Sequence record: NC_054922.1
Strand: one strand, 5' to 3'
Length of the DNA: 64,000 nt
Source of the DNA: Escherichia phage vB_EcoM_KAW1E185
The notes beneath the pieces are model-generated. The model did no database searches. It was not told the DNA's origin and saw only the letters and a list, made by a program, of their open reading frames with translations. The position numbers and the translations under genes are program-made. Shown one piece after another: positions 57,614 to 62,418 of this stretch (the stretch's first letter is position 1; the number at the start of each line of letters is the position of its first letter).

Positions 57614-57802
57614 TTAATAATCTATTGGTAAGAGAGTACGATATATTTCAAACTTTGGACCTTTTTCATAGGCATCAAATGTTTCTGTGAATTTATTATA
57701 AGCATATGCATCTATAAATTCAATCATAATTTGTGATACAGAAGTAGAAACATCTCCACCTTCTTTTTGAGCAACGACAATTGTTTCTAAGTAAGCTTTC
57801 AT
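57614..57802 (-). CDS. hypothetical small protein, 62 aa
   Basis: ORF track; start overlaps the ligase stop. Confidence 0.55.
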   Translation of the reverse strand: MKAYLETIVVAQKEGGDVSTSVSQIMIEFIDAYAYNKFTETFDAYEKGPKFEIYRTLLPIDY

Positions 57803-59262
57803 AGACCAGTTACCTCATGAAAATCACCAAATACATCCTCGAATGTATTAGCTTTAGTTTTATCTTCACGTAAACGAATCGCAATCGGAAGAAATAATTT
57901 AACGTAATCAGTGCGGCCATCAGATTTTAGCCAACCGTTGCATTCGCACTCTAGAATTTTTCCAATATAATAATTTTGGTTTTCCATAATGCGAGTACGG
58001 TCAAGTTCATGTGATTTTACACCGGCTTTATCTTTTAAGCCTGAACCAGCATTTACTTTAATTTTTCCACACTCTGATTCAAGAATAAATCCACCTGCTT
58101 TAGTAGGGTCTTTACGGTGAGGATAAATTCCTACAATTTTTAAATCAACATCAATTACTTCTTTAAATTTATAGAGATTTTTTGAACGAGCATTTTCCCA
58201 CAATCCATCGGTATTTTTGAGAATAATACCTTCAAGACCTTGGTCAATATACTTTTTATAAATTACCTTAGCTTCATCTAGGTTATTTACTACCTGGTTT
58301 TCAATTAAAATTACTTTATCATATCCTGATGTCATTTGTTCTAGTTTAGAAAAACGTACATCATATTTTAAACGAAACGCCGGAAGACCGTATATTTCTA
58401 CCAACGGAACATAATCCCAGACCTGAAACTTCATGCATTGAGCTTCTTTTTCTGAAATAGTTCCCTTTAAAGATTTATTAGCGATTCCATTAGAAGCAGT
58501 ACGAGATTCCGCTACTTCGGCGAATTCTTTAGCTTTACTAATTTCAGGATAATCATCAAAAAGAAAATCTAGGCCTTCTGGTTCCTTTTTAACTTGCTCA
58601 TGGTATACCAATTCGCCATCAATTAACACACCTTCTGGATGAATCTGGCGGGCTTCAGCAGTCATTTTGATTAATTCTTCCTTAAGAAGATCTAATCCTA
58701 GATATTCATTACCAGCTCGTGATAAAAGACGAACATCATCTAATTCATCGCCTCGGACTTCAGCAAAACACCTGGCTCCATCTGCTTTTAACTGTGCAAA
58801 GGCTGGAAATTTGATATTCTTACTAATGCCCTTTTCATCATAAGAACTTGCCAGCATTTGAGGTTGTTCAGGAATTAAACCTGGCCAAACTTTGTTTGCA
58901 ATAGATACTGAAGCACCGCATTCAAGGTCTCGCATCATCACTCGACGCAAAACTTCAACATCATCCTTTTTACCATCGGTGATATATCCAGTCAATTCCT
59001 CAATTGCAGCATTTCCGGTCAATTTCCGAGTAGCTAACGTGAATTCAATGAAGTCAAGCATATCGGTAATGGTCAGCATTCCAAAACTCTGGGTAGCAAT
59101 ACCAGGTTTAGGCCATTTCTTGATATAATACTGTAACCCACGAGAATAAGTTAGACGATATACTCGTTTAAGCAATTCATTATCTTTATTCTTTTCAAGA
59201 ATTGCTTGCTTCTGCTTAGTTGATCCAATAGATGCTATTTCATTCAGAATTTTAAGAATCAT
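57799..59262 (-). CDS. 30: gp30 ATP-dependent DNA ligase
   Basis: 487 aa; adenylylation motif KADGAR; N-terminus recognised as T4 DNA ligase. Confidence 0.97.
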   Translation of the reverse strand: MILKILNEIASIGSTKQKQAILEKNKDNELLKRVYRLTYSRGLQYYIKKWPKPGIATQSFGMLTITDMLDFIEFTLATRKLTGNAAIEELTGYITDGKKDDVEVLRRVMMRDLECGASVSIANKVWPGLIPEQPQMLASSYDEKGISKNIKFPAFAQLKADGARCFAEVRGDELDDVRLLSRAGNEYLGLDLLKEELIKMTAEARQIHPEGVLIDGELVYHEQVKKEPEGLDFLFDDYPEISKAKEFAEVAESRTASNGIANKSLKGTISEKEAQCMKFQVWDYVPLVEIYGLPAFRLKYDVRFSKLEQMTSGYDKVILIENQVVNNLDEAKVIYKKYIDQGLEGIILKNTDGLWENARSKNLYKFKEVIDVDLKIVGIYPHRKDPTKAGGFILESECGKIKVNAGSGLKDKAGVKSHELDRTRIMENQNYYIGKILECECNGWLKSDGRTDYVKLFLPIAIRLREDKTKANTFEDVFGDFHEVTGL

Positions 59263-59528
59263 TGTTCATCCTTCAGAGTTTGATTTACAGCTCTATTATA
59301 AATCAATTCATCATTAAGCTCAGTCAAAGACCTATGATATGTAGTTCTAACTTTATTTCCTTGCATCCAGTGCTTGACGTAAATGAAACCTTGCTCTACA
59401 CATTTTTTAAAAATTCGTTCGTCTTTTTGAGCTCGGAATTCTGGATTGCATCTAAAAAATTGATTTACGTGACCGTAATCACGTGTAGTATTACCTTCAT
59501 TTTCATAAATAGTGTGAACGACAAACAT
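59259..59528 (-). CDS. hypothetical protein, 89 aa (position of T4 30.1)
   Basis: ORF track. Confidence 0.6.
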   Translation of the reverse strand: MFVVHTIYENEGNTTRDYGHVNQFFRCNPEFRAQKDERIFKKCVEQGFIYVKHWMQGNKVRTTYHRSLTELNDELIYNRAVNQTLKDEQ

Positions 59529-60367
59529 TAGAATGCTCCTTGGAAAATATTATCACCACTAGTAGGTCTATTATACAAATACTCTATGCCACCAGGTTTA
59601 ATATAGTTCCATGTCTGAAACGGATGTGTCTGATATGGATGATATAGATGATTATAAGGATTAAATCCAGGAGTTCTCCAGGTAGTATTCCAACGAAAAG
59701 AATCGTTTTTAATCATCTTTTCAATTGCATCTTTTATAGCTTTTTCACTATCAAAACTTTCTTTATTTTCCTTCGGTGAAAAAAGCTTATTTTCTACATC
59801 ATTCCATGTATAAACTCGCTGTGCAGTTTTTGGAATACTGTCACGCTCTCCTCGAGCCATCCAATAAACAGGAACATTTAATATTTCACTCGCGTGATCG
59901 CAGTGGTGAGCGAGATCGTCAATATAACAAATTACGTTATATTTTTCTTTTGCCTTTTTGAACAGCTCTTCTTTTGAAGAATCATGACCACACATCATTA
60001 CTTCTGAGAAGGCACCAGGAAAAAGAGCATTCAAATTAAATTGACGATTCAGCAGAGCGTCAATAGAATCACCCAATGCTGTAACAGCTACAAAATTATA
60101 ATCTTCTTTTAATTTGTTAATTACACACAGAGCATCTTTATATGGAGACAAGTAACGAATAAAATCTGAACGATTGTATTTTTCAATTAACTTGACACCA
60201 AGTTCTTCATCACAATTAAAGAGTTTACCTGGAGAAATAAATTTCTCATCCTGGATCATTTTTAAAATATGTTCTAACGGAAGATTATATTTCTGAGCAA
60301 AATAAGGAAGGCCTGATTGCCAGCTTAAACATACTCCATCAATATCAGTTAAAATAGTAGGCTTCAT
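59528..60367 (-). CDS. HAD-superfamily hydrolase-like protein, 279 aa (position of T4 30.2)
   Basis: N-terminal motif ILTDIDGV (HAD motif I, DxDG) and later YIDD. Confidence 0.65.
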   Translation of the reverse strand: MKPTILTDIDGVCLSWQSGLPYFAQKYNLPLEHILKMIQDEKFISPGKLFNCDEELGVKLIEKYNRSDFIRYLSPYKDALCVINKLKEDYNFVAVTALGDSIDALLNRQFNLNALFPGAFSEVMMCGHDSSKEELFKKAKEKYNVICYIDDLAHHCDHASEILNVPVYWMARGERDSIPKTAQRVYTWNDVENKLFSPKENKESFDSEKAIKDAIEKMIKNDSFRWNTTWRTPGFNPYNHLYHPYQTHPFQTWNYIKPGGIEYLYNRPTSGDNIFQGAF

Positions 60368-60828
60368 AGAGAGTCTCTTAATAGGTTTAACACATCAATA
60401 AATTCAGCTTCGGTTAGTATTGTATCATCTTTTGTTAGACCACTAGCCATGCTGTGCTTCAAAACTTTTCCTTTCGAGGCTTGTAATGCATCGCGAAAGC
60501 CCTTGTTTTGGATCGCTGCTTCAAAATATGCATTTGTGTATAATTCTTTCCACGCTGGAGAGTATCTTGAAAACGGAACTCCAAGCCAGAAGAGGGTCCC
60601 ACGGTCCTGAGCTCTAGCATAAGCTCGTCCAGCTTGTTGGGCGGCAAGCCCGGATAACCCAAATATACGTCTTTGATGTTCAACATTTTTCACCTTACAC
60701 CCTTGGAGGAATCCTTCGAGACCTCCAAATTGGATACCATCCATAACAAAAGGCCATTGGGCGAAATTACTTAATGCGCATGATGGCCATCTAAAATTGC
60801 TTCTTATCTCTAGCTCAGACATTTTCAA
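60364..60828 (-). CDS. NADAR (YbiA-like) domain protein, 154 aa (position of T4 30.3)
   Basis: LSNFAQWPFVMDG...LEGFLQGCKV aligns by eye with E. coli YbiA DFSNFAAWPIKVDG...SEHYFQAQKF; the C-terminal half is also collinear. Confidence 0.65.
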   Translation of the reverse strand: MKMSELEIRSNFRWPSCALSNFAQWPFVMDGIQFGGLEGFLQGCKVKNVEHQRRIFGLSGLAAQQAGRAYARAQDRGTLFWLGVPFSRYSPAWKELYTNAYFEAAIQNKGFRDALQASKGKVLKHSMASGLTKDDTILTEAEFIDVLNLLRDSL

Positions 60829-61021
60829 TACTTATAATTTCAACATCAGCCCAATGACCATAGCAAGGAAGACGAAATTCAACTGGCCAGTTAGGGTCCT
60901 TTTCTAATATAATAGACTCAACTTGTGGTTCTTCGTGTTCATCAGTATATGGATTTTTATCTGTTACTTTATATGTGACCTTAATGTACTGAATTCCAAA
61001 AATCTTATTAATTATATTCAT
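60815..61021 (-). CDS. hypothetical protein, 68 aa
   Basis: ORF track; overlapping operon. Confidence 0.5.
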   Translation of the reverse strand: MNIINKIFGIQYIKVTYKVTDKNPYTDEHEEPQVESIILEKDPNWPVEFRLPCYGHWADVEIISIENV

Positions 61022-61964: not shown

Positions 61965-61984
61965 CAAAGTAAACAATTATTTTA

Positions 61985-62308
61985 CTACTTTCCAGTGCTG
62001 CATGTCAAGTTTACCAACTTTTTCATCTTCTCAATTAAGCGTTCGGCACGTTGGCGAGCTGTAACATAATACCATTCACCTAATTCATTTTGTTCAATTT
62101 TTCCAACGATTACTGTATTCAATTCATAAATCCAACCAGTAAAGAAATTATGAACTTGAATTGTAAAGGTGAAATCTGTTCCCATACCTTCTGTTGTTTC
62201 TACTTCAATAATATCACCTTCAACTGCCATTAAGAACCACATAGTTTCATCATATTTACCATTGAAGCATTTAGTTTTAACTGCAGCGTTCAGATTAATC
62301 GTTTTCAT
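61985..62308 (-). CDS. hypothetical protein, 107 aa
   Basis: ORF track. Confidence 0.55.
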   Translation of the reverse strand: MKTINLNAAVKTKCFNGKYDETMWFLMAVEGDIIEVETTEGMGTDFTFTIQVHNFFTGWIYELNTVIVGKIEQNELGEWYYVTARQRAERLIEKMKKLVNLTCSTGK

Positions 62309-62365: not shown

Positions 62366-62395
62366 AACTTTGTGCAATCTTTGGAAAATAAAAAA

Positions 62396-62413
62396 GGACT
62401 CCCGAAGGAGTCC
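62396..62413 (-). terminator. intrinsic terminator (minus strand) after the small basic protein gene
   Basis: Hairpin GGACTCC-CGAA-GGAGTCC followed on the minus strand by TTTTTT. Confidence 0.6.
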
Positions 62414-62418
62414 TCAAC

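What the first reader, a model, noticed from the sequence alone, without database searches (positions are those of the whole stretch)
59528..60367. HAD-like hydrolase adjacent to the NADAR protein and DNA ligase
The N-terminal ILTDIDGV matches HAD motif I (nucleophilic Asp, DxDG) and a later YIDD could be motif IV. A phosphatase or nucleotidase beside ligase and a NADAR protein suggests nucleotide or ADP-ribose metabolite processing.
Basis: inference. Interest (0 to 1): 0.4.

Follow-up and report, generated by a model that had tools for sequence, protein, structure and literature searches.

The report
T4 gp30.2: deoxyribonucleotidase-like HAD phosphatase
The flagged gene is the T4 gene 30.2 orthologue, an uncharacterised but widely conserved phage protein that is a genuine HAD-type phosphatase most like 5'(3')-deoxyribonucleotidases; published transposon data show it is not needed by the neighbouring NADAR anti-defence enzyme.

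Summary
ORF 59528-60367 (-) encodes a 279-aa protein, 97% identical to T4 gp30.2 ("hypothetical protein"). It begins ILTDIDGV and contains YIDD.

No Pfam or NCBIfam model detects the window protein. Family profiles link it specifically to NT5C 5'(3')-deoxyribonucleotidases: hhalign against human cdN gives 93.5% over core and cap. Controls with T4 PseT (9.6%) and T5 Dmp (1.8%) fail.

The most likely function is a Mg2+-dependent (deoxy)nucleoside-monophosphate phosphatase. The substrate is unknown.

The suggested link to ADP-ribose and NADAR is not supported. In published T4 HIDEN-SEQ data, 30.3/adfN insertions are lost under DarTG1 (log2FC -7.25), but 30.2 insertions are neutral (-0.12, q=1). 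The two genes are also unlinked in many T4-like phages.

Gene 30.2 is dispensable in LB and M9. This is a new, divergent member of a known enzyme kind, of modest interest.

The parts
59528..60367 (-). CDS of the gene 30.2 orthologue, 279 aa including stop. It is 97% identical to T4 gp30.2 (NP_049815.1).
59768..60367 (-). HAD domain, residues 1-200: Rossmannoid core plus C1 cap. Block-mean pLDDT is 84-98, above 90 for most of it.
60332..60358 (-). HAD motif I, residues 4-12 (TILTDIDGV). D8 is the nucleophile and D10 the general acid/base.
   Evidence: D8 aligns with cdN D10, and D10 with cdN D12.
60140..60328 (-). C1 helical cap, residues 14-76 (four helices inserted after motif I). It carries W16, F43 and Y64, which align with cdN F18, F44 and Y65.
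60074..60094 (-). HAD motif II, residues 92-98 (FVAVTAL); T96 codon 60080-60082.
   Evidence: T/S in 140/140
60044..60046 (-). R108, invariant in 140/140 representatives. It aligns with cdN K112.
59972..59974 (-). HAD motif III lysine, K132.
   Evidence: 140/140; aligns with cdN K134
59915..59932 (-). HAD motif IV, residues 146-151 (ICYIDD). D150 and D151 are the Mg2+ ligands.
   Evidence: align with cdN D144/D145
59531..59767 (-). Variable C-terminal extension, residues 201-279. It is low-confidence or disordered and is absent from many orthologues of about 195-220 aa.
59561..59593 (-). Conserved short C-terminal motif GGIEYLYNRPT, residues 259-269. Family pattern: G-[TG]-G-[IL]-E-[YW]-x3-[QR]-P-[TK]. 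Role unknown.
60364..60822 (-). Upstream neighbour 30.3 = AdfN, a NADAR DNA ADP-ribosylglycohydrolase. Its stop overlaps the 30.2 start (ATGA). This is context, not a demonstrated partner.
59259..59528 (-). Downstream neighbour 30.1 (DUF3045). Its start overlaps the 30.2 stop by 1 nt.
57799..59262 (-). Gene 30, ATP-dependent DNA ligase, one gene downstream.

Best explanation
The gene encodes the T4 gp30.2 orthologue, a soluble Mg2+-dependent phosphomonoesterase of the HAD superfamily with a four-helix C1 cap. It belongs to a large, phage-centred and very divergent branch of the NT5C 5'(3')-deoxyribonucleotidase lineage.

Inferred mechanism, from the standard HAD scheme:
- D8 attacks the substrate phosphate to form an aspartyl-phosphate intermediate.
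- D10 protonates the leaving nucleoside and then activates water.
- T96, K132 and probably R108 hold the phosphate.
- D150/D151 together with D8/D10 bind Mg2+.
- The cap closes over a small substrate, and W16, F43 and Y64 occupy the positions of the cdN residues F18, F44 and Y65, which I recall line the nucleoside pocket.

The most likely substrates are (deoxy)nucleoside monophosphates, so the enzyme would trim or reshape nucleotide pools early in infection. It is an accessory, conditionally useful function and is not part of the AdfN reaction.

Shown here: gene, motifs, conservation, fold and the specific NT5C relationship. Taken from published data: dispensability. Inferred: phosphatase activity, substrate class and physiological role.
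For: - All four HAD motifs are present and near-invariant.
- The AF2 model has mean pLDDT 84, above 90 for most of residues 1-200, with a 5-strand core and a 4-helix cap after motif I.
- Of 140 family representatives, 45 hit Pfam NT5C at E<0.01 (best 4e-10), against 24 each for the generic HAD models. Distant members P0240 and P0242 pass the NT5C gathering score.
- hhalign of the family against human cdN gives Prob 93.5%, E 2.3e-7, over 156 columns spanning core and cap, and aligns every catalytic residue. The cdN sequence was verified as 6g2n.
- The family profile's best PDB hit is 3bwv, a putative 5'(3')-deoxyribonucleotidase, at E 1.2e-6 over the full length. Yeast SSM1 (which I know as the SDT1 pyrimidine nucleotidase) and a 'putative nucleotide phosphatase' come next.
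- Controls: T4 PseT 9.6% with motif I only; T5 Dmp 1.8%.
- In BFVD, orthologues are followed, among unnamed and other proteins, by several phage proteins named 5' nucleotidase or deoxyribonucleotidase.
- Some source records already call homologues 'HAD-superfamily hydrolase', 'putative phosphatase' or '5'(3')-deoxyribonucleotidase'.
Against: - The window protein itself hits no Pfam or NCBIfam HAD or NT5C model. The single-sequence PDB match to cdN has E 1.5. The NT5C link is therefore transitive and profile-based.
- HAD substrate specificity cannot be read reliably from sequence. The roles of cdN F18, F44, Y65 and K112 are recalled from the Wallden et al. structures, not checked here.
- hhalign places T96 opposite cdN S100 rather than T99, a one-residue register uncertainty.
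- T4 30.2 insertions have no fitness effect in LB, M9 or with DarTG1, so no phenotype points to nucleotide metabolism.
- A general dNMP phosphatase would seem counter-productive for T4, which recycles host dNMPs.
Confidence: 0.6

Rival explanations
1. ADP-ribose pathway partner of AdfN. gp30.2 would dephosphorylate ADP-ribose or a derived product such as ribose-5-phosphate or an ADPR phosphate released when the NADAR enzyme de-ADP-ribosylates phage DNA. It might also be the 'additional T-even protein' that AdfN was suggested to need.
For: - The 30.3 stop and 30.2 start overlap (ATGA).
- The two genes directly abut in Tequatrovirus-like, RB69-like and Acinetobacter phage loci.
- Both genes occur in about 1440-1510 phage records with similar host spectra.
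- The AdfN paper notes that AdfN works fully only in T-even infection and may need another T-even protein.
- A Vibrio phage homologue lies near a NAMPT gene.
Against: - In the HIDEN-SEQ DarTG1 table, 30.3 has log2FC -7.25 (q=0) while 30.2 has -0.12 (p 0.61, q 1).
- Ectopic adfN alone restores RB69 plaquing on DarTG1 hosts.
- 30.3 is not within 6 kb of 30.2 in more than half of the sampled loci, and lies about 57 kb away in what appears to be KPV15.
- The active-site and cap similarity is to nucleotidases, not to any ADPR-processing enzyme.
Confidence: 0.06
2. Nucleic-acid end-healing enzyme. gp30.2 would be a DNA (or RNA) 3'-phosphatase that prepares nicks for the co-transcribed DNA ligase, analogous to the PNKP phosphatase-plus-ligase pairing.
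For: - A ligase gene lies within 0-1.6 kb downstream of the 30.2 homologue in most sampled T4-like loci.
- A distant homologue sits near an RNA_ligase-family gene.
- There is a weak PHROG hit to polynucleotide kinase (E 0.0033), and one family member hits HAD_PNKP (E 0.0032).
Against: - The model has a closed four-helix C1 cap. In the HAD superfamily this goes with small-molecule substrates, whereas polynucleotide and protein phosphatases are capless (established classification, Burroughs et al. 2006).
- hhalign against T4 PseT gives 9.6% with motif I only.
- T4 already has PseT.
- Synteny in T4-like genomes is largely inherited and is weak evidence of function.
Confidence: 0.06
3. A HAD phosphatase acting on a non-nucleotide small metabolite, such as a sugar phosphate, phosphoglycolate or cofactor phosphate. 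In this case the NT5C-like scaffold would have been retargeted.
For: - HAD enzymes are notoriously promiscuous.
- The window protein fails the NT5C threshold.
- One JGI record names a homologue 'FMN phosphatase YigB'.
Against: Sequence-profile evidence, unlike fold evidence, singles out nucleotidases. Aromatic cap residues align with the cdN positions F18, F44 and Y65 and are conserved.
Confidence: 0.22
4. Catalytically irrelevant scaffold or binding protein. The conserved C-terminal peptide would tether it to another phage or host protein and the HAD site would be vestigial.
For: There is a conserved short C-terminal motif after a variable linker. No phenotype appeared in three conditions.
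Against: Every catalytic residue is under strict conservation across 140 clusters that share only 21-47% identity with the window protein. Many orthologues lack the tail altogether.
Confidence: 0.03

Closest known systems
5'(3')-deoxyribonucleotidases of the NT5C family (Pfam PF06941): human cdN and mdN, S. epidermidis 3bwv
   Same: HAD core plus four-helix C1 cap. The motif I context is similar (DxDGVL..[FW].SGL). All catalytic residues align with cdN, as do W16/F43/Y64 with F18/F44/Y65 and R108 with K112. It is the best sequence-profile PDB hit, gives the best target-normalised TM-scores, and is the Pfam family most often hit by relatives.
   Different: Only about 17-21% identity. The window protein is below the Pfam threshold. 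It has Arg where cdN has K112 and Ser where cdN has R132. It carries an added 80-aa C-terminal tail with its own motif. Activity is untested.
Phage T5 Dmp, deoxynucleoside-5'-monophosphatase (anti-Kongming factor)
   Same: A phage-encoded early enzyme with HAD motifs visible by eye (D22-L-D-G-T ... MIDDH). Experimentally it dephosphorylates dNMPs, and by depleting dAMP it blocks the Kongming dITP alarm. It is a functional precedent for a phage dNMP phosphatase.
   Different: There is no detectable specific homology: hhalign Prob 1.8% and no Pfam hit. The cap differs. T5 discards host dNMPs whereas T4 recycles them. Nothing shows that gp30.2 has this role.
T4 PseT polynucleotide kinase/3'-phosphatase (HAD phosphatase domain)
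   Same: Same superfamily and same phage lineage. Motif I is similar.
   Different: Only motif I aligns (Prob 9.6%). From prior knowledge, the PseT phosphatase domain is capless and acts on polynucleotide ends, whereas gp30.2 has a closed C1 cap.
Yeast SDT1/SSM1 pyrimidine nucleotidase and plant XMP phosphatase (HAD subfamily IA nucleotidases)
   Same: These are the second tier of profile hits in the PDB (E 8e-5 to 0.013). They are C1-cap HAD nucleotidases.
   Different: The match covers only the motif III-IV region, and the cap is not alignable.

Membership tests
HAD superfamily (phosphatase type) | Motif I hhhDxDx[TV]: nucleophile Asp plus Asp+2 acid/base | tested here: met
   T-D8-I-D10-G-V; D8 and D10 are present in 139/140 representatives.
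HAD superfamily (phosphatase type) | Motif II Thr/Ser at the end of strand 2 | tested here: met
   T96 lies at the end of strand 91-96; T or S in 140/140.
HAD superfamily (phosphatase type) | Motif III Lys/Arg | tested here: met
   K132 lies at the N-terminus of helix 133-142; 140/140.
HAD superfamily (phosphatase type) | Motif IV acidic pair (DD/ED) for Mg2+ | tested here: met
   D150-D151 at the end of strand 145-150; D/E in 140/140 and D in 138/140.
HAD superfamily (phosphatase type) | Rossmannoid HAD fold with a cap inserted after motif I (C1) | tested here: met
HAD superfamily (phosphatase type) | Mg2+-dependent phosphoryl transfer through an aspartyl-phosphate intermediate | not testable with these tools
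   Needs an enzyme assay with a D8N control.
NT5C 5'(3')-deoxyribonucleotidase family (PF06941) | Scores above the Pfam gathering threshold (24.8 bits) | tested here: not met
   The window protein has no NT5C hit even at E<=1. Relatives do: P0240 25.5 bits and P0242 29 bits, and 45/140 at E<0.01. I therefore call it NT5C-like, or a divergent sister clade, not a Pfam member.
NT5C 5'(3')-deoxyribonucleotidase family (PF06941) | Homology extending through the specificity (cap) domain, not only the HAD core | tested here: met
   hhalign of A1 against cdN covers residues 5-98 at E 3e-5. A2 against cdN covers residues 4-177 at Prob 93.5%. The PseT and Dmp controls fail.
NT5C 5'(3')-deoxyribonucleotidase family (PF06941) | Aromatic residues lining the nucleoside pocket (cdN F18, F44, Y65) | tested here: inconclusive
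   W16, F43 and Y64 align with them and are conserved: aromatic at position 16 in 139/140, Y/F at position 64 in 139/140, and position 43 more variable. The role of the cdN residues is taken from memory of the published structures, and no ligand docking was done.
NT5C 5'(3')-deoxyribonucleotidase family (PF06941) | Dephosphorylates 5'- and 3'-dNMPs | not testable with these tools
   Enzyme assay needed.
PNKP-type polynucleotide 3'-phosphatase | Capless (C0) HAD domain open to polynucleotide ends, with similarity to PseT/PNKP | tested here: not met
   A four-helix C1 cap is predicted. hhalign against T4 PseT gives 9.6% with motif I only.
AdfN (NADAR) anti-DarTG1 module | Required for resistance to DarTG1 | tested here: not met
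   Published HIDEN-SEQ table: 30.2 log2FC -0.12, q=1, against 30.3 at -7.25, q=0.
AdfN (NADAR) anti-DarTG1 module | Conserved genetic linkage with the NADAR gene | tested here: not met
   30.3 lies within 6 kb upstream in about 37/82 loci and abuts 30.2 in about 20. The two genes lie about 57 kb apart in what appears to be KPV15.

The most novel reading that the evidence does not exclude
gp30.2 could be a conditionally essential counter-defence nucleotidase, a T4-lineage analogue of T5 Dmp. It would selectively destroy a particular (deoxy)nucleoside monophosphate (for example dAMP, dIMP or a non-canonical or analogue nucleotide) that host immune systems use as a signal precursor or as a poison. 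Its conserved C-terminal peptide would dock it onto a phage or host nucleotide-metabolism complex. This would explain why it is kept in well over a thousand T4-like genomes yet is dispensable on defence-poor E. coli K-12.
Probability: 0.12. Interest if true: 0.6.

Novelty: new member of a known kind. Interest (0 to 1): 0.3.

Why it matters
Gene 30.2 is one of the many conserved T4 genes of unknown function. It is present in about 1,440 sequenced T4-like phages and is annotated "hypothetical protein" in the T4 reference. Placing it as a cap-bearing HAD phosphatase of the deoxyribonucleotidase lineage gives a concrete assay panel and named point mutants (D8N, D10N, W16A). Separating it from the AdfN/DarTG1 story prevents a tempting but unsupported guilt-by-association annotation. 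If the substrate turns out to be a defence-relevant nucleotide, it would add to the emerging theme, set by T5 Dmp against Kongming, of phages manipulating dNMP pools to evade immunity. Otherwise it is an ordinary accessory nucleotide-metabolism enzyme.

Tried and rejected
1. Direct family assignment. Pfam and NCBIfam give only sub-threshold noise for the window protein (TPK_catalytic, Pus10_N), which I rejected. PHROG 420 is 'unknown function'.
2. gp30.2 as the missing T-even cofactor of AdfN. Rejected on the HIDEN-SEQ DarTG1 data and on the lack of conserved linkage.
3. Homology to T5 Dmp. Not detectable, so I keep it only as a functional analogue.
4. PNKP-like end-healing role. Rejected on cap architecture and the PseT control.
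5. Fusion partners as functional clues. P0150 (591 aa), P0201 (660 aa), P0102 and P0140 carry extra regions with no Pfam domain. The contexts of P0150 and P0240 are generic phage DNA-metabolism and structural genes.
6. Literature. No paper in the library names gp30.2 or assigns it a function.
7. Promoter scan. Sigma-70-like sites are no more frequent than in shuffles (21 found against 21.3 expected), so I make no firm claim about the transcription unit.
8. The afdb50 fold library was unavailable. Cluster look-ups returned no source names.

Full report
**Where we are.** The window is a Tequatrovirus (T4-like) genome. Bases 59000-61000 are 97-98% identical to many Escherichia and Shigella T4-like phages. 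The local gene order is alt, alt.1, 30 (ligase), 30.1, 30.2, 30.3, 30.4 ... rIII, 31, exactly as in T4. The flagged ORF, 59528-60367 on the minus strand, is 279 aa and 97% identical to T4 gp30.2 (NP_049815.1), which RefSeq calls "hypothetical protein".

**The observation.** It is confirmed. ILTDIDGV is residues 5-12 and YIDD is residues 148-151. Gene 30.3, matched by Pfam Phage_30_3 at E 1.3e-69, lies directly upstream and its TGA overlaps the 30.2 ATG. Gene 30.1 (DUF3045) overlaps the 30.2 stop by one base and separates it from the ligase gene. The ligase is therefore one gene away, not directly adjacent.

**Is it a HAD enzyme?** Curated libraries miss it.
- Pfam and NCBIfam give only noise.
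- PHROG 420 is "unknown function".
- A single-sequence PDB search gives cdN at only E 1.5.

Conservation and fold settle the question.
- In 39 orthologues, D8, D10, G11 and K132 are invariant, and T96, D150 and D151 are at least 90% conserved.
- In 140 representatives of the wider family, found by a profile search of 1.84 billion proteins (1,316 clusters at E<=1e-3), D8 and D10 are each in 139/140. T/S96, R108 and K132 are in 140/140, D/E150 in 140/140 and D151 in 138/140.
- The AlphaFold model has block-mean pLDDT of 84-98 over residues 1-200, above 90 for most of it. It shows a five-strand Rossmannoid core with four helices (16-26, 32-40, 46-49, 54-65) inserted straight after motif I, which is a C1 cap.

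The presence of Asp+2 and the DD motif points to phosphoryl transfer rather than dehalogenase chemistry. This follows from established HAD enzymology.

**Which HAD?** Several independent lines point to the NT5C 5'(3')-deoxyribonucleotidase lineage.
- *Pfam hits among relatives.* 8/39 close and 45/140 distant relatives hit Pfam NT5C (best E 4e-10), more than hit the generic HAD models. Two distant members pass the NT5C gathering score.
- *PDB profile search.* The family profile's best PDB hit is 3bwv, a putative 5'(3')-deoxyribonucleotidase, at E 1.2e-6 over the full length. Other nucleotidases follow.
- *Profile comparison with cdN.* hhalign against human cdN (sequence verified as 6g2n) gives E 3e-5 over motif I, cap and motif II with the close alignment. 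With the broad alignment it gives Prob 93.5%, E 2.3e-7, over 156 columns. The aligned pairs are D8-D10, D10-D12, W16-F18, F43-F44, Y64-Y65, T96-T99/S100, R108-K112, K132-K134 and D150/D151-D144/D145.
- *Structural matches.* The best target-normalised TM-scores are for 3bwv (0.71) and cdN (0.68). In BFVD, several of the named hits after the orthologues are phage proteins called 5' nucleotidase or deoxyribonucleotidase.
- *Controls.* The T4 PseT HAD domain aligns only at motif I (9.6%), and T5 Dmp does not align (1.8%).

The roles of cdN F18, F44, Y65 and K112 in binding base and phosphate are from my recollection of the Wallden et al. structures, not from a result here. A paper on cN-IIIB confirms in general that pi-stacking matters for substrate binding in 5'-nucleotidases.

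**Is it tied to the NADAR neighbour?** Gene 30.3 is now known as AdfN, a NADAR DNA ADP-ribosylglycohydrolase that defeats DarTG1 (PMC11825919). That paper speculates that AdfN may need another T-even protein, which made 30.2 an obvious candidate. The evidence goes against this.
- In the T4 HIDEN-SEQ transposon data (bioRxiv 10.1101/2025.11.20.689424), 30.2 tolerates insertions at 72/72 sites.
- In the control-versus-DarTG1 table, 30.3 falls by log2FC -7.25 (q=0) while 30.2 is unchanged at -0.12 (q=1). I identified that table as sheet S6 from the sheet order and from the start of sheet S8 in part 16.
- 30.2 is also neutral in LB versus M9, at -0.10, q=1.
- Across 82 loci, 30.3 abuts 30.2 in about 20, lies 0.1-1.3 kb upstream in about 17 more, and is not within 6 kb in the rest.
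- In what appears to be Klebsiella phage KPV15 (matched by record length), the two genes are about 57 kb apart.

The adjacency is real in T-even and Acinetobacter phages but is not a conserved functional coupling.

**Ligase linkage.** A ligase gene follows within 0-1.6 kb in most loci. This could suggest end-healing. However, the closed C1 cap and the failed PseT comparison argue for a small-molecule substrate.

**Most likely mechanism.** gp30.2 is an early-expressed, Mg2+-dependent (deoxy)nucleoside-monophosphate phosphatase acting through an aspartyl-phosphate intermediate on D8. I put HAD phosphatase at about 0.9 and a nucleotide substrate at about 0.6. The physiological substrate is unknown. 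T5 Dmp is a precedent for a useful phage dNMP phosphatase: it blocks the Kongming system by depleting dAMP. No data connect gp30.2 to that system.

**Other features.** About 57% of the close homologues sampled are 240 aa or longer, carrying a variable, disordered C-terminal extension. Seventeen of those 57 end in a conserved peptide, G-[TG]-G-[IL]-E-[YW]-x3-[QR]-P-[TK]; here it is GGIEYLYNRPT, residues 259-269. Its role is unexplained.

**Verdict.** This is a correct observation of an ordinary but uncharacterised enzyme. It is a divergent new member of a known kind, and the ADP-ribose association is not supported.

Noticed in passing
window 59561-59593 (-), residues 259-269 of gp30.2: A short conserved C-terminal peptide (GGIEYLYNRPT; family pattern G-[TG]-G-[IL]-E-[YW]-x3-[QR]-P-[TK]) follows a variable, disordered linker. 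It is present in 17 of 57 long orthologues sharing only 45-99% identity. It looks like a docking motif, but the partner is unknown.
   Followed up: partly
window 60815-61021 (-), gene 30.4: In the published HIDEN-SEQ DarTG1 table, 30.4, which overlaps the start of 30.3/adfN, is also depleted (log2FC -1.79, adjusted p 0.014). This could be a polar or translational-coupling effect on adfN, or a real helper of AdfN.
   Followed up: no
window 60364-60828 (-): the ORF listing starts 30.3/adfN at a TTG (154 aa). T4 annotates 152 aa, which corresponds to the ATG at 60822 and overlaps 30.4 by 8 nt as in T4. The C-terminus is full length, unlike the truncated DarTG1-sensitive RB69 allele, so this phage is predicted to resist DarTG1.
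   Followed up: partly
window 60459-60686 (-): A 75-aa ORF in another frame inside 30.3 corresponds in position and length to T4 gene 30.3' (228 nt), annotated there as an internal translation product.
   Followed up: no
L003 2038-5708 (Vibrio phage TCU-VP03-AIR1): A 190-aa homologue of gp30.2 (about 37% identity) sits between a divergently transcribed nicotinamide phosphoribosyltransferase gene and two radical-SAM genes, with no ligase or NADAR nearby. These Vibrio phages show two matching places for the 30.2 query.
   Followed up: partly
window 62394-62415 (-) and 61979-62008 (-): There is a strong terminator-like hairpin (GAGGACTCCTTCGGGAGTCCTT followed by a T-run) in the 30.9 region downstream of rIII. 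The best sigma-70-like match on the minus strand (TTGACA-18-TAAAAT) lies upstream of 30.7. Together they may delimit the transcription unit that runs through 30.3, 30.2, 30.1 and 30. Promoter-like sites overall are not enriched over shuffles.
   Followed up: no
P0150 (591 aa, locus L083 6001-7776) and P0201 (660 aa): These metagenomic proteins carry the gp30.2-like HAD domain at the C-terminus of a long N-terminal region with no Pfam match. P0150 lies on a 58-kb contig that also encodes a family A DNA polymerase and looks phage-like.
   Followed up: partly
L085 124-858 (-) (phage T5 dmp): T5 Dmp has no Pfam hit, yet its sequence shows all four HAD motifs by eye (WDLDGT, ICTAR, a Lys, MIDDH). 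This agrees with the D22A catalytic mutant in the Kongming paper. It appears to be another uncatalogued phage HAD nucleotidase family.
   Followed up: partly
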